From Escherichia coli (lineage in GTDB: Bacteria > Pseudomonadota > Gammaproteobacteria > Enterobacterales > Enterobacteriaceae), in NCBI RefSeq assembly GCF_046105845.1, contig NZ_CP151004.1: a stretch of DNA of 64,000 nucleotides; one strand, written 5' to 3'. The notes below the pieces were generated by a model that saw only the letters and a list, made by a program, of their open reading frames with translations, was not told where the DNA came from and did not search any database. Both the position numbers and the translations under genes were made by a program. Positions within the stretch are counted from its first letter, which is position 1, and the number at the start of each line of letters is the position of its first letter. Positions 43,778 through 57,155 of the stretch are shown piece after piece.

Positions 43778-44107
43778 ATGAGCAATCTGAATCCATGCAT
43801 GACGTGTGGTGCCTGTTGTGCATTTTTCCGCGTCTCTTTTTACTGGGCCGAAGCCGACGATGCTGGCGGTACCATTCCCGCCAGGCTCACTGAACAAATA
43901 TCCCCTTTTCACCGATGCATGAGCGGTACCAATCAGAAAAACCCCCGATGTATTGCCCTTGCAGGAACACCGGGCAAAAATGCCTGCTGCACGATATATA
44001 AAAATCGATCGTCCACGTGCAGAGAATTCGCCATGTCTGGTGAGAACGGAGTCGTCAATGAGGCTTGCAATCGTGCAAGAGCTAAATACGGGCTGACACC
44101 GTTATAA
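43778..44107 (+). CDS. ykgJ: Cys-rich putative Fe-S/zinc-binding protein YkgJ
   Basis: 109 aa; CxxCGxCC and further Cys motifs. Confidence 0.8.
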
Positions 44108-44355
44108 ATATGCAATAATTAATTGCACTGCCCCGCCAGCTATAATCGCGGGGCTTCGTTTTTCAGGGATAACAAAACCCGAAACTTCTTCCATCTGCCA
44201 GCAACAATGCCTCTTCCTCTATAGTGTTCTCCGGATCTACAGCATCCTGAAGTAGCGCGATGTACTCATTGGCTATCTGCGTCAGAAAGTTAAAAACAAT
44301 GTTTTTAACCTATAAAAATGGCGCTGTATTTGCGCCATTTTTATCATTCAATGCA

Positions 44356-44970
44356 TTATCTGTTTGAGCCTAAAGGGATCTCAGGGTCTGGCTCATGAGT
44401 AATTCTGTTTCGTAAATCTCTGCGAATAATTTCAATGGACCAGAACCAGACTAAATGTCCAAAAATTTCAGAAACATTCTCATACCACGGGAGATCAAAC
44501 AGAGGTGGCGTCAGTCCCATGAGAGGGAATGAAATCATATGAACAAAAAGTTGGGCTAAAGCACCTGCCAGTAAGCCCTGCCAGAGTTTAATTTTTGGAA
44601 ATACTTCAGCGACCACACAGTAACCAACGGCAAACACTATCGAAAAGATAATGTGCGTAACGCCAACCCAGTTAAAGACATGCCCGGCAAAGGTATAAAC
44701 AGCCGCATTGGGATCTGTCAGCCCTAGCCAGTCTCGAAGAAAAATATACGGAGGATTGAGAAAATTACGGGAGCAATCAATTTGCCCAGCAGCCCTGATT
44801 AATGATTCCGGGCCACACGCTGCATTAAACATATCCACCGGGCTACGTGGCGGCAATGGAACTTCAGCCCCCCACTTCACAAATGCGGAAACAACGCCAG
44901 CAATCAGCCCAATGAATGCAGCAAGACCATAACGTCTGCGGTTCGGTGGAGTTTGTTCAAATATATTCAT
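44356..44970 (-). CDS. yagU: Inner-membrane protein YagU (DUF1440)
   Basis: 204 aa, multi-TM; matches recalled YagU. Confidence 0.8.
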
Positions 44971-45376
44971 ATCTACCCTGCTTGTACCATTATGTTATAC
45001 ACCTCTTCAGGAGTATTCATAAAACAAGACAAATGTAAAGAACTGTATTGTTTTGTATAACAAAATAGTTTCCTAATCGCCAATGAATATAAGCACCATC
45101 ATTTCTCCCTATTTTTATGTTAGAAGTGACAAAGATTTGTAGGGTGATGCAGAGCTGACAATCACAGGTTTCCTTATCGGTTTTTGCATCGCACAACTAA
45201 AGCAATAAACGAGCTCCCGTCATCGGCGAATATGAATTAATTAGCCGGGCTCATAGCTGCATTCGCGTTTTAAGAATAATCCTCCTGCTCTCACCGACTA
45301 TGCTTAACATTTAAAAAAGCATCAGCACTCTCGCAACGCTCTCTTATTTTCCCCTTTAGAATACCGGAGGCCTGGT

Positions 45377-46066
45377 ATGAGCAACCAAGGCGAATACCCC
45401 GAAGATAATCGGGTTGGGAAGCACGAGCCGCACGATTTTAGTTTGACCCGTCGCGATCTGATTAAAGTCAGCGCCGCAACGGCGGCGACCGCCGTGGTTT
45501 ATCCTCATTCTACGCTTGCAGCAAGCGTTCCGGCAGCTACACCCGCGCCCGAGATAATGCCCCTGACACTTAAGGTGAACGGCAAAACCGAGCAGTTGGA
45601 CGTTGATACCCGAACCACGCTACTGGACGCTTTGCGTGAAAATCTGCATCTGATCGGTACCAAGAAAGGTTGCGATCACGGGCAGTGCGGAGCCTGTACC
45701 GTGCTGGTCAATGGTCGCAGGCTTAATGCCTGCCTGACGCTTGCAGTCATGCATCAGGGGGCCGAGATCACCACCATTGAAGGCCTGGGTTCACCAGAGA
45801 ATCTTCACCCCATGCAGGCGGCCTTTATCAAGCATGATGGCTTCCAGTGCGGCTACTGCACCTCCGGGCAAATTTGCTCATCAGTAGCGGTGCTAAAAGA
45901 GATTCAGGACGGCATTCCCAGTCACGTCACGGTCGATTTGGTTTCCCCTCCAGAAAGAACTGCCGATGAGATCCGTGAACGTATGAGCGGCAACATCTGT
46001 CGCTGTGGTGCATACGCTAACATCCTTGCCGCCATTGAAGATGCTGCGGGGGAGATAAAATCATGA
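45377..46066 (+). CDS. paoA: Periplasmic aldehyde oxidoreductase 2Fe-2S subunit PaoA (Tat signal)
   Basis: 229 aa; twin-arginine motif TRRDLIKV; 2Fe-2S Cys motifs [10 protein letters not shown] and CGYC...CRCG. Confidence 0.92.
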
Positions 46067-47019
46067 AGGCGTTTACCTATGAACGAGTGAACACCCCGGC
46101 CGAGGCGGCACTTAGCGCTCAGCGCGTACCCGGCGCAAAATTTATCGCTGGCGGGACCAATCTGCTGGACCTGATGAAGCTGGAAATTGAAACGCCCACC
46201 CACCTTATCGATGTGAACGGCCTCGGGCTCGATAAGATTGAAGTGACCGACGCGGGTGGGCTGCGCATCGGCGCACTGGTACGGAACACCGACCTGGCGG
46301 CTCACGAGCGCGTGCGTCGTGATTACGCGGTACTCTCCCGCGCCCTGCTCGCTGGCGCGTCTGGTCAGTTACGTAATCAGGCAACCACCGCAGGTAATCT
46401 GCTCCAGCGCACGCGCTGCCCCTATTTTTACGACACCAATCAGCCCTGCAATAAGCGCCTGCCCGGGAGCGGCTGCGCGGCACTTGAAGGCTTTAGCCGT
46501 CAGCACGCGGTGGTAGGCGTAAGCGAAGCCTGCATTGCCACCCATCCGAGCGATATGGCGGTCGCAATGCGGTTGCTGGATGCGGTAGTGGAAACCATCA
46601 CGCCGGAGGGAAAGACTCGCAGTATCACACTGGCTGATTTTTATCACCCACCGGGGAAAACGCCGCACATTGAAACCGCCCTGCTTCCCGGTGAGCTTAT
46701 CGTTGCGGTGACGTTACCTCCGCCGCTCGGCGGAAAACATATCTACCGCAAGGTGCGCGATCGCGCCTCCTACGCCTTTGCTCTGGTGTCGGTCGCGGCG
46801 ATTATCCAGCCAGACGGCAGCGGGCGCGTCGCACTGGGCGGAGTAGCTCATAAGCCCTGGCGCATTGAGGCTGCGGATGCTCAGCTATCCCAGGGGGCGC
46901 AGGCCGTGTATGACGCGCTGTTCGCCAGCGCCCATCCCACCGCTGAAAACACCTTTAAACTCCTGTTGGCGAAGCGAACGCTTGCCTCCGTACTGGCTGA
47001 AGCGAGGGCACAGGCATGA
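46063..47019 (+). CDS. paoB: Aldehyde oxidoreductase FAD-binding subunit PaoB
   Basis: 318 aa; CO-dehydrogenase flavoprotein-like; 4-bp overlap with paoA. Confidence 0.9.
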
Positions 47020-49214
47020 AATTTGATAAACCCGCAGGGGAAAACCCGATCGATCAGCTGAAGGTTGTCGGTCGTCCCCATGACCGCATCGACGGACCGC
47101 TGAAAACTACTGGCACGGCACGCTACGCCTACGAATGGTATGAAGAAGCTCCCAACGCCGCCTATGGTTATATCGTCGGTTCCGCCATTGCCAAAGGATC
47201 CCTCACCGCCCTCGATACGGACGCCGCGCAAAAAGCGCCGGGCGTACTGGCTGTCATTACCGCCAGTAACGCCGGGGCACTCGGCAAAGGCGACAAAAAC
47301 ACCGCCAGGCTGTTAGGCGGCCCCACTATTGAGCACTATCATCAGGCCATTGCGCTGGTAGTGGCTGAGACCTTCGAACAGGCGCGAGCGGCGGCCTCGC
47401 TGGTGCAGGCGCACTATCGCCGTAATAAAGGAGCTTACTCCCTGGCGGACGAGAAACAGGCCGTCAGTCAGCCGCCGGAAGACACGCCCGATAAAAATGT
47501 TGGTGACTTTGACGGGGCTTTCACCTCCGCTGCGGTGAAGATTGATGCTACCTACACGACCCCGGACCAGAGCCATATGGCGATGGAGCCGCATGCCTCG
47601 ATGGCCGTCTGGGATGGAAATAAGCTTACTCTCTGGACCTCAAATCAGATGATTGACTGGTGCCGCACCGATCTGGCAAAAACGCTGAAAGTGCCCGTGG
47701 AGAATGTGCGTATTATCTCCCCGTATATCGGCGGAGGGTTTGGCGGCAAGCTGTTCCTGAGAAGCGATGCGCTGCTGGCGGCCCTCGCCGCCCGTGCGGT
47801 GAAACGTCCGGTTAAAGTGATGCTCCCCCGCCCCACTATTCCCAATAACACCACGCACCGCCCCGCCACCCTTCAGCACTTGCGTATCGGTACTGACCAG
47901 AGCGGGAAAATCACCGCTATCTCACATGAAAGCTGGTCCGGAAACCTGCCCGGCGGCACGCCGGAAACGGCGGTACAGCAAAGCGAATTACTCTACGCCG
48001 GAGTGAGTCGTCATACCGGCCTGCGGCTCGCCACGCTTGATTTGCCGGAAGGGAACGCCATGCGTGCGCCCGGCGAAGCCCCCGGTCTGATGGCGCTCGA
48101 AATCGCGATCGATGAACTGGCGGAAAAAGCGGGCATCGATCCCGTCGAGTTTCGCATCCTGAATGACACTCAGGTTGACCCCGCCGACCCGACGCGCCGC
48201 TTCTCTCGCCGTCAGCTTATCGAGTGCTTGCGCACCGGAGCGGATAAATTTGGCTGGAAGCAGCGCAACGCCACACCCGGACAGGTGCGCGACGGGGAGT
48301 GGCTAGTCGGCCACGGCGTCGCAGCGGGCTTTCGCAATAATCTGCTGGAAAAATCGGGTGCGCGGGTTCATCTCGAACAAAACGGCACCGTTACCGTGGA
48401 AACGGACATGACCGATATTGGCACTGGCAGCTACACCATTCTGGCCCAGACGGCAGCGGAAATGCTTGGCGTACCGCTGGAGCAGGTTGCGGTTCACCTC
48501 GGCGATTCCAGTTTCCCGGTTTCTGCGGGGTCTGGTGGACAATGGGGCGCGAATACCTCCACCTCCGGCGTTTACGCCGCCTGTGTGAAGCTTCGCGAAA
48601 TGATTGCCTCGGCAGTCGGGTTTGATCCTGAGCAGTCGCAGTTTGCCGACGGCAAGATTACCAACGGTACCCGAAGCGCCATGCTACATGAGGCCACCGC
48701 AGGCGGCAGACTGACAGCGGAAGAAAGCATTGAATTCGGAACACTGAGCAAGGAGTACCAGCAGTCGACCTTTGCCGGGCATTTTGTGGAGGTCGGCGTG
48801 CATAGCGCGACGGGAGAAGTTCGGGTCCGGCGTATGCTCGCTGTGTGTGCTGCAGGACGCATCCTGAATCCGAAAACTGCACGCAGCCAGGTCATTGGCG
48901 CAATGACTATGGGCATGGGCGCGGCACTGATGGAGGAGCTGGCGGTGGATAACCGTTTGGGCTACTTCGTTAATCACGATATGGCGGGGTATGAGGTTCC
49001 GGTCCATGCGGATATCCCAAAACAGGAGGTGATTTTCCTGGATGATACCGACCCCATATCCTCCCCGATGAAGGCCAAAGGTGTCGGTGAGCTGGGCCTG
49101 TGCGGCGTGAGCGCGGCTATCGCCAACGCGGTGTATAACGCCACCGGTATTCGGGTACGGGATTATCCCATCACTCTGGATAAGCTGCTCGATAAGCTGC
49201 CGGATGTGGTTTAA
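47016..49214 (+). CDS. paoC: Aldehyde oxidoreductase molybdopterin-binding subunit PaoC
   Basis: 732 aa xanthine-dehydrogenase-family Mo subunit; 4-bp overlap with paoB. Confidence 0.9.
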
Positions 49215-49223
49215 GGAGGAACA

Positions 49224-50180
49224 ATGTCATACCCACTTTTTGACAAAGACGAGCACTGGCATAAGCCAGAGCAGGCGTTTCTCACCGATGACCACCAGGC
49301 CATTCTGCGCTTCGCCGTAGAGGCGCTAATGTCCGGTAAAGGAGCGGTGCTGGTGACGCTGGTGGAAATACGCGGCGGCGCGGCGCGCCCGCTCGGGGCG
49401 CAGATGGTGGTGCGCGAAGATGGCCGTTACTGCGGTTTTGTCTCTGGCGGCTGCGTGGAGGCCGCTGCCGCTTTTGAAGCGCTGGAGGTGATGGGCTCAG
49501 GCCGCGATCGCGAAGTTCGCTATGGCGAAGGTTCACCGTGGTTTGACATCGTTCTGCCCTGCGGCGGTGGGATCACGCTGACGCTCCATAAACTACGCTC
49601 GGCACAGCCTCTGCTCGCCGTGCTGAACCGCCTGGAACAGAGAAAACCGGCGGGTCTGCGCTACGATCCGCAAGCTCAATCGCTGGTGTGCCTGCCCACG
49701 CAAACCCGGACGGGCTGGAATCTCAATGGCTTTGAGGTGGGGTTCAGGCCATGCGTCAGGCTGATGATTTACGGACGTTCTCTTGAGGCGCAGGCAACCG
49801 CGAGTCTTGCAGCAGCCACAGGCTATGACAGCCATATCTTCGATCTTTTTCCGGCCTCAGCCAGCGCTCAGATCGATACCGATACGGCGGTCATTTTGCT
49901 GTGCCATGATCTCAACCGGGAGCTGCCAGTGTTGCAGGCCGCGCGAGAAGCAAAACCCTTTTATCTCGGCGCATTGGGCAGCTATCGAACCCACACGTTA
50001 CGTCTGCAAAAGCTCCACGAGCTGGGATGGTCCAGGGAGGAAACAACGCAAATCCGGGCACCCGTCGGGATATTCCCCAAAGCCCGGGATGCGCATACTC
50101 TGGCACTCTCCGTGCTGGCAGAAGTCGCCTCTGTACGTCTCCATCAGGAGGAGGATTCATGCCTGCCCCCGTCGTCCTGA
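49224..50180 (+). CDS. paoD: XdhC-like molybdenum cofactor insertion chaperone PaoD
   Basis: 318 aa; follows paoC. Confidence 0.88.
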   Translation: MSYPLFDKDEHWHKPEQAFLTDDHQAILRFAVEALMSGKGAVLVTLVEIRGGAARPLGAQMVVREDGRYCGFVSGGCVEAAAAFEALEVMGSGRDREVRYGEGSPWFDIVLPCGGGITLTLHKLRSAQPLLAVLNRLEQRKPAGLRYDPQAQSLVCLPTQTRTGWNLNGFEVGFRPCVRLMIYGRSLEAQATASLAAATGYDSHIFDLFPASASAQIDTDTAVILLCHDLNRELPVLQAAREAKPFYLGALGSYRTHTLRLQKLHELGWSREETTQIRAPVGIFPKARDAHTLALSVLAEVASVRLHQEEDSCLPPSS

Positions 50181-50240
50181 TCCTTGCGGCCGGGCGTGGA
50201 GAGCGCTTTCTCGCCTCCGGGGGAAATACCCATAAATTAA
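50160..50240 (+). pseudogene. N-terminal fragment of a MobA/MocA-like molybdopterin nucleotidyltransferase
   Basis: MPAPVVLILAAGRGERFLASGGNTHKL has the nucleotidyltransferase P-loop (L-x-x-AAG-x-G-x-R); homology ends after about 27 codons; ATG overlaps paoD 3' end. Confidence 0.4.
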
Positions 50241-50359
50241 GAGAAAAATCTGCAGTAGTCGTTTTAGAAAATCACCTAAATCGTTTAAAAGAGCGCCCAA
50301 CCCATAGTGGGCGCTCATCGCCTTGTGTGACTTATTCAGCAACGCGCACCCTCGCCGGA

Positions 50360-51553
50360 CTAAAGCGCACCGGCCTTCTGGCGTGCGGTAACAAAGGTCA
50401 GTACGCCAGCGCAAAGGAGCAGCACGCTACTCATAGCAAACGTGCTCTGCCAGCCAAGGCGGTCAAATACGATGCCTCCTGCTGTTGATCCAAGGGCGAT
50501 GGCGAGCTGAATCACCGCGACCATGAGCCCGCCTCCGGCTTCGGCGTTGTCAGGCAACGTACGCGCAATCCATGTCCACCATCCGGTTGGCGCGGCGGTG
50601 GCCAGCATGCCCCAGAGTCCTAACAGCAGCGAGACCGTCCAGACGTGATGCCCGGTCAGCATCAGACCGATAGCAATGACGGCCATCAGTCCGGGTATGG
50701 CCATCAGCGTGGGGTAGAATTTTCTGTTGAGAAATGCCGAAACAACCAGCGTGCCAATAAAACCGGCCACGCCGATAATCAGCAAAATCAACGACAAGCC
50801 TAAGGAATTAACCCGTGTCACCGACTCCAGAAACGGGCGCACATAGGTGAATAGTGCAAACTGCCCCATGAAAAACAGGCAGCAGGCTATCATGCCGACC
50901 ACAACCATGCGGCGGCTAAATAAGCGGAATACCGCGCCACATGAAGTGTGGCTTTTATTCGCATCCATGCTTGGCAGGCTGATGCACTGCCAGATAAAGG
51001 CGACAACCGCGATGGGCACCAGGCACAAGAAAGCGCCTCGCCATCCGACCGTAGCCCCCAGATAGCTTCCCAGCGGTGCGGCCACGACCGTCGCCAGCGC
51101 ATTACCGGCGTTGAAAATTGCCAGCGCACGCGTGACCTGATGCTGCGGCACCAGACGAATCGCCGTTGCCGCTGACATCGACCAGAATCCGCCAATAGCC
51201 ACACCAATCATCGCACGACCGACCATATACATCAGATAACTGGAAGCCAGCGCAATAATAAGCCCCGATACGGCCATCAGAACCGTCATCCCCAGCAGCA
51301 GGAACTTACGATTCATCTTTCCAGCTAGCGTTGAAAGCGTCAGGCTGGTCAGAACCGCCAGCGCGCCGGAGATAGCAATCCCCTGCCCTGCCAGCCCCTC
51401 CGTCACGCCTAAATCGCGGGTAATCGGCGTGAGCAGGCTGACGGGCATAAATTCAGAAGCAATCAGCACAAACACGCACAGGGTCATGGCAAAAATACCG
51501 CCCCAGTATGCGCGCTGATGATGAGGTGATAGTGTTTGGCTTAGTGTCGACAT
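50360..51553 (-). CDS. MFS transporter (12 TM, drug/metabolite efflux-like)
   Basis: 397-aa hydrophobic ORF with MFS-like repeated TM pattern. Confidence 0.8.
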   Translation of the reverse strand: MSTLSQTLSPHHQRAYWGGIFAMTLCVFVLIASEFMPVSLLTPITRDLGVTEGLAGQGIAISGALAVLTSLTLSTLAGKMNRKFLLLGMTVLMAVSGLIIALASSYLMYMVGRAMIGVAIGGFWSMSAATAIRLVPQHQVTRALAIFNAGNALATVVAAPLGSYLGATVGWRGAFLCLVPIAVVAFIWQCISLPSMDANKSHTSCGAVFRLFSRRMVVVGMIACCLFFMGQFALFTYVRPFLESVTRVNSLGLSLILLIIGVAGFIGTLVVSAFLNRKFYPTLMAIPGLMAVIAIGLMLTGHHVWTVSLLLGLWGMLATAAPTGWWTWIARTLPDNAEAGGGLMVAVIQLAIALGSTAGGIVFDRLGWQSTFAMSSVLLLCAGVLTFVTARQKAGAL

Positions 51554-51628
51554 AGTGAAATTTCACAAAGATCAGGATAAAAGCCACCAGCCTATGGCCG
51601 GTGGCTTTGCATCAATTCAGGAGAGGTT

Positions 51629-52786
51629 TTATTTCAGTTTGGTCTGGAAAAATTGTTCGAACTTCGCGAAAGGTATTTTTCCGGCCACGTTATCGTACAG
51701 GTCCACGTGATTTGCCCCTGGTACCACCACCAACTCTTTGTCTTTACTGCCAACCGCCTTGTAAGCATCTTCAGCAAAATAGCGTGAATGTGCTTTCTCA
51801 CCGGTCACAATCAGCGTCGGAATGGTGATTTCACTGGCGTAGCTCAACAGCGGCATATTCATAAATGACAGCGGCATCGTTGCCGTCCACGCCCCGGTAG
51901 AGTTAACGGAACGTTCGTGGAAGCCGCGCGGCATGCGATAGTAGTCAAAGAACTCTTTCAGTACCGGATGAGGATTTGCCGGCAGCGTTTCTGGCAGAAT
52001 GCGCTCGCCAGCACTGACCTTGCCGTTGCTATCGACATTAATATCATGACCACCGTGAGCGAACGTTCCGCTCTGCGCATCCTGCCAGCGCTGTTCATTC
52101 AGATATTGCAGAACGGCACGACGGTCGGCGGTAGAATAACGGTCTTTGCCATCCCCCACACCATGACCCATCGCCCGGCTCATGTCATACATCACGCTGG
52201 TAGCTACCGCTTTAACGCGGGTATCCATCGCCACGTCGTTCAGCGCCATGCCGCCCCAGCCACAAATACCGAGCAGCCCGATACGGTTGCGATCTACCTC
52301 TTTTTGCAGCCCTAAGAAATCCACCGCCGCGCTGAAATCTTCAGTGTTGATATCCGGTGAGGCGACGTTTCGCGGATAGCCGCCGCTTTCCCCGGTGTAA
52401 GAAGGATCGAACGCCAGGGTAACAAACCCTCGTTCCGCCAGCGTCTGCGCATACAGGCCGCTGGATTGCTCTTTCACCGCGCCAAATGGCCCACTGACCG
52501 CAATCGCCGCCAGCTTGCGATCGCCACGGTCTTTAGGCAGGTAAAGATCGCCCACTAAGGTGATGCCATATCGGTTCGGGAACGAGACTTTACGGTGATC
52601 GACTTTCTGGCTCTCGGCGAACGTTTTATCCCATTTATCTGTCATGGACACAGGGGCATTAGGATTGGTTGAATCAGCATAACTCATTGTCGTGACCCCA
52701 CTTAATGATGCGAAAAGCAGCATGGTCGGCATCGCGGTTTTTAGCGTTCGGGTGAAGGCTTTCATAAAAATCCCCATAAAAAACAA
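51629..52786 (-). CDS. Secreted alpha/beta hydrolase, dienelactone-hydrolase-like (GxCxG)
   Basis: 385 aa; signal peptide; GICGWGG nucleophile elbow; paralog of 31954-32874. Confidence 0.7.
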   Translation of the reverse strand: MFFMGIFMKAFTRTLKTAMPTMLLFASLSGVTTMSYADSTNPNAPVSMTDKWDKTFAESQKVDHRKVSFPNRYGITLVGDLYLPKDRGDRKLAAIAVSGPFGAVKEQSSGLYAQTLAERGFVTLAFDPSYTGESGGYPRNVASPDINTEDFSAAVDFLGLQKEVDRNRIGLLGICGWGGMALNDVAMDTRVKAVATSVMYDMSRAMGHGVGDGKDRYSTADRRAVLQYLNEQRWQDAQSGTFAHGGHDINVDSNGKVSAGERILPETLPANPHPVLKEFFDYYRMPRGFHERSVNSTGAWTATMPLSFMNMPLLSYASEITIPTLIVTGEKAHSRYFAEDAYKAVGSKDKELVVVPGANHVDLYDNVAGKIPFAKFEQFFQTKLK

Positions 52787-52951
52787 CAGAGAGATACAGG
52801 TTTCCGACGGACAACGCTGCGGTGCTTTACTTTGATGGGGTCATTATAGTGAGCAGAATTAGTGCTGATTAGGGGGCGATTAATGCTAAGATTAATACCA
52901 TATTGTTATAAATTAATGCGGAGATTGCCGGCATGAAGGGGGGATGTTTCA

Positions 52952-53836
52952 ATGGCGAAAAGGGAGAACTACAACGAGCTGTACCTGTTTATGCAGGTGG
53001 TGCGGGAAGGCAGCTTTACCGCAGCGGCTCAGCGGCTGGGTCTTGCTCAGTCAGGAGTCAGCCGTTCTGTTCGCGAGCTTGAAGAAAGGCTCGGCGTCCA
53101 GCTGCTAGTGCGCACCACGCGTAAACTGTCGCTGACACAAGCAGGCGAGCAGCTCTACCAGAAGACGGCATCTGGATTTGAAATGTTAGATCTTGGGCTT
53201 GCCACGCTGGCGCACTATCGAGAGACGCCCTCCGGCACGGTGCGTATCAATGCCAGCCAGCACGCGATTGATAAATGCCTGCTGCCAAAGCTGGCGGTAT
53301 TTAAACAGCGATATCCTGATATCCGGCTTGAACTGATAAATGAGAGCCGGTTCGTCGATATCATCGAGGAAAGATTCGATGCAGGTGTCCGCCTGGGGCC
53401 TGAAGTCGGCCAGGGTATGGTCGCGGTACGCATCACGCCCGATATGGAGATGGCAATTGTGGGGACTCCGGAACATTTTCGTCGCTATGGTTTTCCGCAA
53501 ACCCCGGCGGATTTAAAGGCGCATCCCTGTATCGCCTATCAGTTTGCCGACGGCAGCGTATACCAGTGGGAACTCAATCAGGATGATAAAAAAATCACTC
53601 ATCGCCCTGAAGGGCAATGGGCCTTATCCGACAGCTATATGGAAGCAGAAGCCGCCCGGCTGGGCCTCGGATTGGCCTATGTTCCTGTTGAACTGGTCGC
53701 GGATGATTTAGAACACGGTAAGCTTATCAGGGTGTTGCAGCGTTACAGCCTGCGAATGGAGGGATTGTTTCTCTATTACCCTCATCGCAACGTCTCCCCC
53801 GCCCTGCGGATGGTCATTGATACATTGAAAATCTGA
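52952..53836 (+). CDS. LysR-family transcriptional regulator
   Basis: 294 aa; LysR HTH (LYLFMQVVREGSFTAAAQRLGLAQSGVSRSVRELEERLG); divergent from hydrolase gene. Confidence 0.8.
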   Translation: MAKRENYNELYLFMQVVREGSFTAAAQRLGLAQSGVSRSVRELEERLGVQLLVRTTRKLSLTQAGEQLYQKTASGFEMLDLGLATLAHYRETPSGTVRINASQHAIDKCLLPKLAVFKQRYPDIRLELINESRFVDIIEERFDAGVRLGPEVGQGMVAVRITPDMEMAIVGTPEHFRRYGFPQTPADLKAHPCIAYQFADGSVYQWELNQDDKKITHRPEGQWALSDSYMEAEAARLGLGLAYVPVELVADDLEHGKLIRVLQRYSLRMEGLFLYYPHRNVSPALRMVIDTLKI

Positions 53837-54061
53837 ACGTTAATAACGACCGACTCTTCACTGTGCAACATTGTGTCAGGTAGTCCCTCTGCGTTCAATT
53901 CCAGGGTCTGCTTTGAGCGAGAAAGAGGGGACTATCCAGCAATGGAGATCACCCAAAAGAAAAAACCACCTGGCTCCCTCGACAACCTTCATCCAGGCAT
54001 TTAGCCTCAATCAACATTTTTATATCTGTCAGGTTACTTCATGATGAAAACTGATCATTAT

Positions 54062-54315
54062 CGTTGTTTTTGTTGCAATAGTAGAATACGCGTATTTATT
54101 CCTCCATCTCTATTAATAACGGCAATAAACTGTTCACTTCACTGATATTTAAAATATGTATCCTTTTCAAGCTGTTCAGCGGCGTAAGAAAAAGTATTAA
54201 TTATGAATTCGACGATTTAACCATATCTGTCTGATTGGTAATCATCCGTGATTAATGTTGGTCTATTGATTACGCCAGCATTAACCGCTTAGGGATGTAT
54301 TCTTCCTGTTGATAT
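54062..54315 (+). repeat. Degenerate paralogous copy of the ykgR 3' half fused to the ykgO 3' end plus downstream sequence
   Basis: About 90% identity over about 100 bp to 34776-34885 and about 75-80% over about 145 bp to 35561-35705, by eye; ykgM/ykgO and the Zur box are missing from this copy. Confidence 0.7.
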
Positions 54316-54607
54316 CCCCCCCTCGAAAAAGAGAGAAAATAAAACTGTGTCCAATATTACTCTACCACTCCAGACCGAAGCATCGGTGGGATTAGCAGGA
54401 CGACTGGTACAGAAGGATGGTATAGCGTCATTTGTCGGGCATTCCATTGCCATAATAATGACAATTTTGAATCAATAGACATGCTTCTTGATCATGTCTT
54501 AAAAATTAGACCATGAGCCTTACGAAGCATCATTTTTACTGACTGGTATTAACTTTGCTATCATATAAACTCTGTTCTTAAAAACGCGCCCAGAATTTAT
54601 ATGATTT

Positions 54608-54745
54608 TCATTGTTTTTCTGCCTGTAAAGAAATTTCTTTTTCAGTGCTGTCGATGGTTGAACCGACGGCAGTAATCGTTTTGGCGACGCTACTGAAGGA
54701 TATTAAAGACAGTGTAACCACAACAATTAAAGAATAGATAATATT
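54608..54745 (-). CDS. Hypothetical small hydrophobic protein (about 45 aa from MNIIYSLIVVVTLSLISF)
   Basis: ORF only; single predicted TM/signal-like segment; no homology recognised. Confidence 0.2.
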   Translation of the reverse strand, partial: NIIYSLIVVVTLSLISFSSVAKTITAVGSTIDSTEKEISLQAEKQ

Positions 54746-54963
54746 CATGCTAATTCTCCTGACAATTGAGAGGATGAGTTTTATATACAAAGGCATTAAA
54801 TATGAGTCATGTTTACTCCCTGTGAAAATAATCTTACTGTAATTAAACCTTCATCTCCTTCGGAGTGAGCAATGCATAATATAATGCATCTTGCTATTCA
54901 AAACAGTGGATATAAATTTTCCTCGCGACCTATTTAATAAAACGTGAATATAAAAGTTAGTCT

Positions 54964-55515
54964 TCAGTTTGCAGATGCAGTAGGTCTGATGGTAATTTCG
55001 GTTGTATCAACTGTTTCGGGAGATTCAATAATATGCCTTACAGCACGGGCAATATCCGCGGGTTGAAGTGCAACAGAACGGTAGGCGTCCATTGACTTCA
55101 TGGTTTCCACATGGGTAATGGTTGAAGCCAGTTCACTTTCTACAACCCCAGGATTTACGCAGGTCACACGGATTTTCGAGCTTTCCTGCCGTAAGCCATC
55201 CGAAATAGCCCGTACTGCAAATTTTGATGCACAATAGACTGCGCCTGTGGGCACAACAGAAAGGACACCAATAGAACCAAGATTGATTATCTGACCGGAA
55301 CCCTGTGCTTCCATCACCGGAAGTACAGCGCCAATTCCCCAAAGTACGCCTTTGATATTCACGTCAATAGTGAGTTCCCATTCATCTTGTTTTCCTGCTG
55401 CAAGCGGTGAAAGCGGCATAACGCCCGCATTATTGATAAGAACATCAACTCGCCCCCAGCTATCCAGCGCTGCTTGCACGAAATCGGCCATGGACTGCCG
55501 GTCTGTGACATCCAA
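54964..55515 (-). pseudogene. 5'-truncated short-chain dehydrogenase/reductase (SDR) gene
   Basis: Contains SDR catalytic region (NNAG, YCASK) but lacks the N-terminal Rossmann TGxxxGxG segment; reading frame terminates at the junction with the integrase fragment. Confidence 0.6.
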
Positions 55516-55686
55516 CTTGCATTTTCAGAAATGGGAGGCTGGGAGTCTATCGAAATGGTTCGTCGATATGCTCACCTCGCGCCTAATCACCTTACCGAAC
55601 ACGCACGGCAAATAGACTCAGTCCTGAACCCATCGGTCCCAAATTTGTCCCAGTCAAAAAATAAGAAAGGTACTAATGATGTGTAA
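55516..55686 (+). pseudogene. C-terminal fragment of a tyrosine (P4-type) integrase abutting thrW
   Basis: [20 protein letters not shown] is a typical integrase C-terminus including the catalytic Tyr region; ends 15 bp from the tRNA 3' end; no N-terminal or core domain present. Confidence 0.6.
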
Positions 55687-55700
55687 CTTATTGATTTAAA

Positions 55701-55776
55701 TGGTGCCGATAATAGGAGTCGAACCTACGACCTTCGCATTACGAATGCGCTGCTCTACCAACTGAGCTATATCGGC
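55701..55776 (-). tRNA. thrW: tRNA-Thr (anticodon CGU)
   Basis: 76-nt cloverleaf read on minus strand: GCCGATATAGCTCAGTTGGTAGAGCAGCGCATTCGTAATGCGAAGGTCGTAGGTTCGACTCCTATTATCGGCACCA; anticodon loop contains CGT. Confidence 0.93.
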
Positions 55777-55890
55777 CCTGAAAGGACATGTTCACGAACG
55801 TGAATCACGGTGGACAAGGTTAAAACTAACCGGGCGATGCGTCAATGGCCTTGTGAATCAAATGGCTACTTTTGCATCACCCGGTTTTAT

Positions 55891-57144
55891 TTACGCACGA
55901 ATGGTGTAATCACCAATGCCGATCCACTTGTAAGTGGTCAGTGCTTCCAGCCCCATTGGGCCACGCGCGTGGAGTTTTTGTGTGCTTACCGCCACTTCCG
56001 CACCCAGACCAAACTGGCCGCCGTCGGTAAAACGCGTAGAGGCGTTAACGTAAACAGCGGACGAATCCACTTCGTTAACAAAACGCTGGGCGTTGCGCAT
56101 ATCGCGGGTCAGGATCGCATCGGAGTGTTGTGTGCCGTGTTCACGAATATGGGTGATGGCATCGTCAAGATCGCTGACGATTTTGACGTTCAAATCTAAT
56201 GACAGAAACTCATCGTCATACTCTTCCGCTTTCACAGCCACCACCTTCGCGGGGCCTGTCTGCAACTGCGCCAGCGCAGCTGCATCTGCGTGTAATGTCA
56301 CGCCGCTTTCCGCCATTTGTTTGCTTAATGCGGGCAGGAAGCTGTCGGCGATGTTTTTATTCACCAGCAACGTTTCAACCGTATTACATGTGCTCGGACG
56401 CTGGGTTTTCGCGTTGACGATTACTTTCAGGGCTTCAGCGATCTCTGCACTTTCATCAACATAAATATGGCATACGCCTATACCACCTGTGATCACCGGG
56501 ATCGTCGACTGTTCGCGGCACAGTTTATGCAGGCCAGCGCCACCACGCGGGATCAGCATGTCGATGTATTTATCCATACGCAGCATTTCACTGACCAGCA
56601 CACGGTCAGGATTATCAATCGCCTGCACGGCACCCGCCGGTAAGCCGCAGGATTTCAGGGCGTCCTGAATCACCGCCACCGTTGCAGCGTTAGTGCGACA
56701 CGTTTCTTTGCCGCCGCGCAGGATCACCGCGTTACCTGTTTTCAGGCACAGCGAAGCGACATCTACCGTCACGTTCGGGCGCGCTTCATAAATCACGCCA
56801 ATCACCCCCAGCGGCACGCGACGGCGCTCCAGACGCAGACCACTGTCCAGTACGCCGCCATCGATTACCTGCCCCACCGGATCGGCGAGATTACACACCT
56901 GACGCACATCGTCGGCGATGTCTTTCAGCCGTGCGGGCGTCAGTGCCAGACGGTCAAGCATCGCTTCGCTAAGGCCATTGGCACGCGCGTCAGCAACATC
57001 CTGGGCGTTAGCGTTGAGGATGATTTCGCTTTGTGCTTCCAGTTCATCGGCGATTTTTTCCAGCACACGATTTTTTTCGCGGCTGGAGAGTTGCGCTAAT
57101 TTATACGAGGCTTGCTTTGCGGCAATGCCCATTTGTTCCAGCAT
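55891..57144 (-). CDS. proA: Gamma-glutamyl phosphate reductase ProA
   Basis: 417 aa; sequence matches recalled ProA. Confidence 0.93.
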
Positions 57145-57155
57145 CGGCCAGCTCC

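What the first reader, a model, noticed from the sequence alone, without database searches (positions are those of the whole stretch)
54608..54745. Unannotated small hydrophobic ORF in the thrW-proximal scar region
A 45-62-aa minus-strand ORF (MNIIYSLIVVVTLSLISFSSVAKTITAVGS...) with one predicted TM or signal-like segment lies in otherwise non-coding AT-rich DNA between the ykgR-like repeat and the truncated SDR gene. It could be a small membrane protein or toxin-like peptide, or a spurious ORF.
Basis: seen in the sequence. Interest (0 to 1): 0.25.

Follow-up and report, generated by a model that had tools for sequence, protein, structure and literature searches.

The report
Broken remnant of small periplasmic-protein gene
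The small hydrophobic ORF is real, but it is only the front 60% of a decayed 76-codon gene for an exported stress/biofilm-family (DUF1471, BhsA-like) protein that is intact in other E. coli, so it is an ordinary pseudogene rather than a new small membrane protein or toxin.

Summary
It runs 46 aa from the ATG at 54748, or 62 aa from 54796, to a TGA at 54610-54608. Its length is no more than chance gives in this AT-rich DNA.

Homology shows what it is. In other E. coli (435 of 5,426 complete genomes, including O157:H7, O55:H7 and O145), E. fergusonii and cryptic Escherichia clades, the same locus holds an intact 76-aa gene. RefSeq lists it as a 92-aa "hypothetical protein".

The window allele carries three lesions:
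- GGA to TGA at codon 47
- a 1-base deletion in an A run
- a 1-base deletion in a T run

All nine other carriers aligned have identical DNA, so this is a lineage-fixed pseudogene and not a sequencing error.

The intact protein has a Sec-type signal peptide (…SVA|K) and a roughly 50-residue β-α-β-β domain. A profile search links it to short enterobacterial YdgH/BhsA/McbA (DUF1471) proteins (hhalign 99.8%), although it scores below Pfam's own cut-off. Intact orthologues show purifying selection (dN/dS 0.14-0.31).

The gene is the last member of a conserved LysR–SDR–small-protein cassette. In the window that cassette has lost its LysR gene and the 5' end of its SDR gene.

Verdict: a real gene remnant, almost certainly non-functional, and of low interest.

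The parts
54608..54748 (-). Surviving ORF: 46 codons (MNIIY...QAEKQ) plus the premature TGA. This is the finding itself.
   Evidence: The exact product is P0162, found on at least 24 public contigs.
54520..54748 (-). Full footprint of the pseudogene: 229 bases homologous to the intact 231-base, 76-codon CDS of other E. coli. The original TAA is at 54522-54520.
   Evidence: Alignments to intact alleles in L001 and L002.
54683..54748 (-). Codons 1-22, the Sec-type signal peptide (hydrophobic core, S-V-A then K cleavage motif). There is no lipobox.
   Evidence: Read from the sequence. The Ala at -1 is nearly invariant across 43 homologues. The AF2 model puts helix 3-19 ahead of the folded domain.
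54756..54760 (-). Shine-Dalgarno AGGAG, 7 nt upstream of the ATG at 54748.
   Evidence: The upstream region is aligned across lineages.
54749..54796 (-). In-frame upstream extension that gives the 62-aa form here and the 92-aa form in PGAP. It is probably not translated.
   Evidence: In the cryptic-clade orthologues the upstream ATG is ATT and a 1-nt indel breaks the frame. No SD precedes it.
54608..54610 (-). Lesion 1: nonsense codon TGA, which is GGA (Gly47) in intact alleles.
54596..54598 (-). Lesion 2: A run shortened from 4 to 3 (a -1 frameshift).
54580..54584 (-). Lesion 3: T run shortened from 6 to 5 (a -1 frameshift). P0067 carries a frameshift consistent with the same change on a different allelic background (inferred from its protein sequence).
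54048..54116 (+). ykgR fragment: the C-terminal 22 of 33 codons plus the stop, convergent with the small gene as in the ancestral arrangement.
   Evidence: PGAP annotates it in related genomes.
54964..55515 (-). SDR oxidoreductase remnant, the upstream member of the cassette. It lacks the first 57 codons, which hold the N-terminal part of the SDR domain.
   Evidence: 98% identical to residues 58-240 of the intact 240-aa SDR. The Pfam adh_short match starts at profile position 56.
55528..55686 (+). C-terminal integrase fragment abutting thrW. It marks where an integrative element replaced the 5' end of the SDR gene and the cassette's LysR gene.
   Evidence: Annotated as a partial integrase in the 98%-identical record H1. 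It has no Pfam hit of its own.
55701..55776 (-). tRNA-Thr (CGT), thrW, an integration hotspot.

Best explanation
The ORF is the 5' remnant of an inactivated accessory gene.

The intact gene:
- It has 76 codons and starts at the ATG equivalent to 54748.
- It encodes a precursor with a 22-residue Sec signal peptide, cleaved after S-V-A.
- The mature periplasmic or secreted domain is about 54 residues with a β-α-β-β fold.
- It belongs to a short-form, Escherichia-specific branch of the YhcN/BhsA/McbA (DUF1471, PF07338) family of enterobacterial stress and biofilm proteins.
- It is the last gene of a conserved cassette: divergent LysR regulator, then SDR oxidoreductase, then small protein.

The window's lineage:
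- The gene acquired a GGA to TGA nonsense mutation at codon 47 and two 1-base deletions in homopolymer runs further downstream.
- The cassette lost its LysR gene and the first 57 codons of its SDR gene to an event at thrW that left an integrase fragment.
- If the remnant is still translated, it would yield the signal peptide plus strand 1 and the helix (24 mature residues). It would lack the β-hairpin that completes the sheet, so it should not fold. This is inference.

Shown: the homology, the lesions, their fixation in a lineage, purifying selection on intact alleles, and the cassette context.
Inferred: export, the biological role, and the loss of function.
For: Lesions and their reality:
- Intact 76/92-aa orthologues lie at the same locus in other E. 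coli. The three lesions are seen in the alignment.
- The identical triple-lesion allele occurs in nine independent public assemblies, so it is not a sequencing error. Some of these still have an intact SDR and LysR.

Ancestry and selection:
- Intact copies occur in cryptic Escherichia clades and in a 56-59%-identical mobile version, so the intact form is ancestral.
- dN/dS is 0.14-0.31 for the small gene, against 0.04-0.08 for the SDR and LysR genes, with equal dS across all three.

Family assignment:
- A profile of the Escherichia family retrieves 62 proteins from 1.84 billion, mostly of 68-73 aa.
- 37 of 43 members of the combined alignment (A3, which includes five Escherichia-family sequences), and 31 of 35 of the non-Escherichia set (A6), hit PF07338.
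- hhalign of the Escherichia family against that non-Escherichia set gives probability 99.8%, E 6.5e-28, over 72 columns.
- The intact protein hits NCBIfam BhsA weakly, at E 1.5e-4 to 8.5e-4.

Structure:
- The AF2 model has pLDDT 91-96 over residues 21-70, with the order E-H-E-E.

Start codon:
- An SD sits before the ATG at 54748, and the upstream ATG is not conserved.
Against: - Neither the window ORF nor the intact Escherichia protein reaches Pfam's gathering score for PF07338 (14.4 against 27 bits). Family assignment is therefore transitive.
- The signal peptide lacks the usual Lys or Arg in its n-region. No signal-peptide predictor or experiment was available.
- The start codon, the SD and promoter-like hexamers are intact. 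Translation of the 46-aa stub cannot be excluded.
- All carriers are identical, so selection on the stub could not be tested.
Confidence: 0.88

Rival explanations
1. The 46-aa product is still made and has acquired a function of its own. It could be a small membrane-anchored protein, or an exported peptide made of the signal peptide plus an amphipathic helix.
For: The ATG, the AGGAG SD and promoter-like hexamers upstream are all intact. The allele is fixed and unchanged in at least 24 contigs of one lineage.
Against: - Two further frameshifts accumulated downstream, and the neighbouring SDR and ykgR genes have also decayed. That pattern fits neutral erosion of the whole block.
- The stub lacks two of the domain's three strands.
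- Many other, different disruptive alleles exist in the population, which argues that the gene is dispensable rather than being refashioned.
- No family of conserved truncated forms was found.
Confidence: 0.06
2. It is a type I toxin-like or other hydrophobic toxic peptide gene.
For: It is short, has a hydrophobic N-terminus, and lies in AT-rich DNA near a tRNA integration site.
Against: - The hydrophobic segment aligns with the cleavable signal peptides of DUF1471 proteins, and the rest aligns with their soluble domain.
- Rfam finds no antisense or sRNA family and no other RNA family here.
- No terminator-like hairpins were found.
Confidence: 0.02
3. It is a spurious ORF in non-coding DNA, with no gene now or in the past.
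For: The ORF length is within chance for this composition. The 46/62-aa sequence itself has no significant Pfam or NCBIfam hit.
Against: - An intact orthologue is conserved in frame across Escherichia lineages at dS up to 0.39 with dN/dS 0.14-0.25. It is also conserved against a mobile version at dS of about 0.9 with dN/dS of about 0.3.
- The profile link to PF07338 proteins is strong.
- The AF2 domain is predicted with high confidence.
Confidence: 0.03

Closest known systems
YhcN / BhsA (YcfR) / McbA (YbiM) / YahO / SrfN family, i.e. the DUF1471 domain, Pfam PF07338 'YdgH_BhsA-like'
   Same: - Restricted to Enterobacterales.
- A small precursor with an N-terminal signal peptide ending in A-x-A.
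- A soluble α+β domain of about 50-70 residues.
- Conserved core motifs (…S/T-A-x-G/A-S-T-L/I-D-x-A-E…A…G-A/K-S-Y-K-I…N-x-V-Y/H-M-T/I-A-x-L) aligned in register.
   Different: - The Escherichia subfamily scores below Pfam's and NCBIfam's cut-offs.
- It is a short form. The mature part is about 54 residues, and the model shows three strands and one helix, where the solved DUF1471 domains have a fourth, short N-terminal strand.
- The n-region of the signal peptide has no basic residue (MN-I/T…).
- The window copy is truncated after the helix and is not a functional member.
Short (68-73 aa) 'DUF1471 domain-containing' proteins of Klebsiella, Enterobacter and other genera (e.g. P0089 WP_262830294.1, P0095), and the 73-aa mobile-island version P0146
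   Same: - Same length class and architecture.
- 33-59% identity to the intact Escherichia protein.
- P0146 sits in the same LysR–SDR–small-gene cassette, with a 90%-identical SDR and an 86%-identical LysR.
   Different: - Most of these reach the PF07338 threshold; the Escherichia chromosomal form does not.
- P0146 travels inside prophage or CP4-57-like islands rather than at the thrW-proximal chromosomal site.
RefSeq WP_024177850.1, WP_024221765.1 and WP_001301751.1: 'hypothetical protein', 92 aa, in E. coli including O145:H28 and O55:H7
   Same: The direct intact orthologue of the window ORF at the same locus. Nucleotide identity is 92.7-98.1% over the 801-base query spanning the gene and its flanks.
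   Different: It is intact. PGAP starts it at the upstream ATG (92 aa), but conservation supports the internal ATG and 76 aa.

Membership tests
DUF1471 / YdgH-BhsA-McbA-like (Pfam PF07338) | The sequence matches the family HMM at or above the curated gathering score. | tested here: not met
   Window ORF: no hit. Intact orthologue: 14.4 bits against a cut-off of 27, E 0.041. NCBIfam BhsA: 19.8-22.2 bits against a cut-off of 90.
DUF1471 / YdgH-BhsA-McbA-like (Pfam PF07338) | Homology to bona fide members by profile methods. | tested here: met
   The Escherichia-family profile finds proteins mostly of 68-73 aa at E down to 1.7e-20 in 1.84 billion sequences. 31 of 35 of the set taken from them hit PF07338 at E of 1e-3 or better, and the first scores 33.5 bits against a cut-off of 27. 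hhalign between the two sets gives 99.8%, E 6.5e-28.
DUF1471 / YdgH-BhsA-McbA-like (Pfam PF07338) | N-terminal cleavable signal peptide (periplasmic or secreted protein). | tested here: inconclusive
   A hydrophobic core and S-V-A|K are seen in the sequence. The Ala at -1 is nearly invariant in 43 homologues. There is no basic n-region, and no predictor or export assay was available.
DUF1471 / YdgH-BhsA-McbA-like (Pfam PF07338) | An α+β fold like SrfN, YahO and YdgH, with RcsF as the closest other fold (PMC4092069). | tested here: inconclusive
DUF1471 / YdgH-BhsA-McbA-like (Pfam PF07338) | A complete domain is present in the window copy. | tested here: not met
   A stop at codon 47 removes strands 2-3 (residues 48-69 of the model). 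Two further frameshifts lie downstream.
DUF1471 / YdgH-BhsA-McbA-like (Pfam PF07338) | A role in stress response, biofilm or the envelope. | not testable with these tools
   Only the literature on paralogues is available (PMC4092069). There are no data on this subfamily.
Type I toxin or small hydrophobic toxic peptide | A short hydrophobic peptide with an overlapping or adjacent antisense RNA, and no homology to soluble-domain proteins. | tested here: not met
   Homologous to exported soluble-domain proteins. No RNA family at the locus.

The most novel reading that the evidence does not exclude
The gene may be a recurrent target of inactivation in E. coli. Besides the window's triple-lesion allele, public data hold at least five other kinds of disruptive allele:
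- frameshifts in an A4 run
- a frameshift consistent with loss of one T from the T6 run
- another frameshift
- a 23-codon deletion
- junction or insertion forms

There is also a compensated double frameshift. If these losses are adaptive rather than neutral, for example by removing an envelope or biofilm factor or an exposed antigen, or if the surviving signal-peptide-plus-helix stub is expressed and active, then the locus would report on selection acting on DUF1471 proteins.
Probability: 0.07. Interest if true: 0.4.

Novelty: new member of a known kind. Interest (0 to 1): 0.12.

Why it matters
It matters little for biology. For annotation it has three practical uses:
- It turns a 'hypothetical protein' with no recorded Pfam domain, found in about 8% of complete E. 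coli genomes and including O157:H7, into a divergent short-form DUF1471/BhsA-like exported protein with a corrected start (76 aa rather than 92 aa).
- It shows that this gene belongs to a LysR–SDR–small-protein cassette that also circulates on mobile islands.
- It shows that the window's copy should be flagged as a pseudogene. This prevents it being reported as a novel small protein or toxin.

Tried and rejected
- Pfam and NCBIfam scans of the 46-aa and 62-aa ORF gave only noise: PsbT, DDE_Tnp_1_assoc, FliF, and the BhsA signal-peptide region at E 0.12.
- PDB sequence searches with the intact protein and with the shallow family profile found nothing useful. The broader profile gave only weak hits to DUF1471 structures 2jna, 2ma4 and 2noc, at E 0.03-0.7.
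- AF2 on the shallow, Escherichia-only alignment gave a poor all-helix model (pLDDT 60.8). I discarded it.
- Foldseek against the PDB had no hit at E of 0.001 or better. The signal-peptide helix in the model probably hurts the alignment.
- The afdb50 fold library was unavailable.
I did not rely on it.
- The Rfam scan of 53800-55900 found only the tRNA.
- The terminator scan found none.
- Literature searches for ykgR/thrW and for DUF1471 found no description of this gene.
- I rejected the toxin, stand-alone small membrane protein and spurious-ORF readings for the reasons given under the rival explanations.

Full report
**Observation**

The minus strand carries an ORF that ends at the TGA at 54610-54608. 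It can start at the ATG at 54796 (62 aa, MPLYIKL…) or at the ATG at 54748 (46 aa, MNIIYSLIVVVTLSLISFSSVAKTITAVGSTIDSTEKEISLQAEKQ).

The context is also as described:
- GC is 0.33-0.41 across 54000-55050.
- A C-terminal ykgR fragment lies at 54048-54116(+).
- An SDR gene lacking its first 57 codons lies at 54964-55515(-).
- tRNA-Thr(CGT) lies at 55701-55776(-).

The ORF's length alone means nothing. In shuffles of this AT-rich stretch, 42% contain an ORF of 62 aa or more, and the observed number of ORFs of 46 aa or more equals the shuffle mean.

**What it is**

Megablast of 54300-55100 against 5,426 complete E. coli genomes finds the segment in 615 of them, at no more than 98.1% identity. In those genomes PGAP annotates a 279-base "hypothetical protein" on the same strand at the same place.

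Translation gives MPLYIKLILSIVRRIS-MNIIYSLIVVVTLSLISFSSVAKTITAVGSTIDSTEKEISLQAAKQGKSYKILGAFFKNRVYMIAKLIPVSKNDAS. This matches the window ORF apart from one residue (A44 in this allele, E44 in the window and in the O145 allele) and then continues for 30 more residues.

The DNA alignment shows three lesions in the window:
- GGA to TGA at codon 47 (54610-54608)
- loss of one A from an A4 run (54598-54596)
- loss of one T from a T6 run (54584-54580)

The original TAA is still recognisable at 54522-54520.

The exact 46-aa product (P0162) is on at least 24 public contigs. Nine assemblies carrying the truncated allele were aligned: eight through P0162 and one ENA contig through its 62-aa form, P0076. 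All nine are base-for-base identical to the window across the pseudogene, including all three lesions. The lesions are therefore real and fixed in one lineage.

Some carriers still have the intact 240-aa SDR and its LysR neighbour (L007, L008, L011). In another carrier, the truncated SDR abuts a P4-like primase (L005). The small gene therefore died before, or independently of, the thrW-side deletion.

**Is the intact form a real gene?**

Close homologues are confined to Escherichia and Shigella: E. coli, S. dysenteriae, E. fergusonii and cryptic clades. Nei-Gojobori estimates between E. coli and clade orthologues give dS 0.30-0.39 with dN/dS 0.14-0.33, and 0.10-0.18 over the mature part.

Against a 56-58%-identical mobile version, dS is about 0.95 and dN/dS about 0.3. 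The adjacent SDR and LysR genes show the same dS (0.75-0.92) but dN/dS of only 0.07-0.08. The small gene is therefore a true coding sequence that is co-inherited with its neighbours and evolves three to four times faster at the protein level.

**Start codon**

AGGAG sits 7 nt upstream of the ATG at 54748. In the cryptic-clade orthologues the upstream ATG reads ATT, and a 1-nt indel breaks the frame between the two starts. In some alleles the internal start is GTG (P0046, P0078).

The 76-aa reading, and hence the 46-aa reading in the window, is the supported one. The 92-aa and 62-aa forms are over-extensions by the gene caller.

**Family**

Direct scans of the intact protein are sub-threshold: PF07338 at 14.4 bits against a cut-off of 27, and NCBIfam BhsA at E 1.5e-4 to 8.5e-4.

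A profile of 18 Escherichia sequences searched against 1.84 billion representatives returns 62 proteins, mostly of 68-73 aa. Sources name two of them "DUF1471 domain-containing" or "YdgH/BhsA/McbA-like".

- Of the 43 aligned, 37 hit PF07338 at E of 0.01 or better.
- Of the 35 non-Escherichia ones, 31 hit it at E of 0.001 or better.
- hhalign of the Escherichia family against those 35 gives 99.8% probability, E 6.5e-28, over 72 columns.

With the deeper alignment, AlphaFold2 models residues 21-70 at pLDDT 91-96 as strand, helix, strand, strand, behind a signal-peptide helix.

I conclude that the intact protein is a divergent short-form member of the DUF1471 family.

**Genomic logic**

In cryptic clades, O55:H7, O145 and other E. 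coli, the order is: LysR (299 aa, divergent), SDR (240 aa), the small gene, then a convergent ykgR.

The same LysR–SDR–small-gene trio (86%, 90% and 56-59% identity), followed by an Atu4866-family gene, is carried inside prophage-like and CP4-57-like islands in E. coli. Its small protein is also recorded from Klebsiella and Atlantibacter.

The gap of about 220-240 bases between the SDR gene and the small gene suggests the small gene has its own promoter. The conserved linkage suggests a shared function or shared regulation by the LysR protein. Both points are inference.

In the window, this block survives only as ykgR', small-gene' and SDR'. The block is bounded by an unrelated LysR/hydrolase/MFS segment on one side and by an integrase fragment next to thrW on the other. 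"Scar region" is therefore an apt description.

**Mechanism**

By analogy with characterised paralogues (BhsA/YcfR, McbA, YahO, SrfN; PMC4092069), the intact protein would be exported by Sec, cleaved after S-V-A, and act in the periplasm or at the cell surface in stress or biofilm physiology. None of this has been tested for this subfamily.

The window allele can at most yield the signal peptide plus 24 mature residues (strand 1 and the helix). It lacks the hairpin that forms two-thirds of the sheet. It is most likely non-functional and quickly degraded. Nothing excludes residual translation, because the SD and ATG are intact.

**Rivals**

- A neo-functional stub (about 6%) cannot be excluded but has no positive support.
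- A type I toxin (about 2%) conflicts with the homology and with the absence of any RNA partner.
- A spurious ORF (about 3%) is refuted by conservation and selection.

**Novelty and score**

The thing in the window is an ordinary pseudogene. The modest new information is:
- the family assignment and start-codon correction for a "hypothetical protein" present in 435 of 5,426 complete E. coli genomes
- the cassette it belongs to
- the observation that the gene has been broken in several different ways in the population

Interest is 0.12.

Noticed in passing
Proteins P0061-P0082, homologous to window 54520-54748: Public data hold many different disrupted alleles of the same small gene:
- -1 frameshifts in an A4 run (…GNHIKFWARFLRTEFI; P0072, P0074, P0078, P0081, P0082)
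- a frameshift consistent with T6 to T5, the window's third lesion, on another background (P0067, 24 contigs; inferred from its protein sequence)
- another frameshift (P0071)
- a 23-codon in-frame deletion (P0073)
- junction forms (P0079, P0080)
- a compensated double frameshift (P0061, P0063, P0064)

This suggests recurrent loss, though some could be homopolymer sequencing errors.
   Followed up: partly
L018-L021, positions about 2035-4582: A LysR–SDR–DUF1471-like–Atu4866 cassette (SDR 90%, LysR 86%, small protein 56-59% identical to the chromosomal Escherichia version) rides inside mobile elements. These are CP4-57-like islands with CbeA, RadC, antirestriction and YfjT genes, or sites next to UmuDC, AbiTii or AbiH. 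The small protein is also recorded in Klebsiella pneumoniae and Atlantibacter hermannii.
   Followed up: partly
window 55474-55686 (+) and 54964-55515 (-): A C-terminal integrase fragment directly abuts thrW and replaces the first 57 codons of the SDR gene and the cassette's LysR gene. Carriers of the same small-gene pseudogene allele are polymorphic here. Some have an intact SDR and LysR (L007, L008, L011). One has the truncated SDR next to a P4-like primase (L005).
   Followed up: partly
window 44000-64000: The best match to any of 5,426 complete RefSeq E. coli genomes is only about 98.5% over 20 kb. The window's lineage is therefore not closely represented in that set. The exact small-ORF allele does occur on a 4.74-Mb NCBI contig that I did not identify.
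   Followed up: no
window 54749-54796 (-), and RefSeq WP_024177850.1, WP_024221765.1, WP_001301751.1: PGAP calls the intact orthologue as 92 aa from an upstream ATG that has no SD and is not conserved in cryptic clades. The likely true product is 76 aa, so this is a systematic start-site over-extension in RefSeq.
   Followed up: yes
window 54048-54116 (+): The ykgR remnant keeps only the C-terminal 22 of 33 codons. PGAP annotates a ykgR fragment of the same length in O145, O55:H7 and strain UID2309220033. That truncation is therefore older and more widespread than the small-gene lesions. Intact ykgR persists in the cryptic clades and in the E. coli assembly GCA_044022635.1 (L012, L014, L017).
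   Followed up: partly
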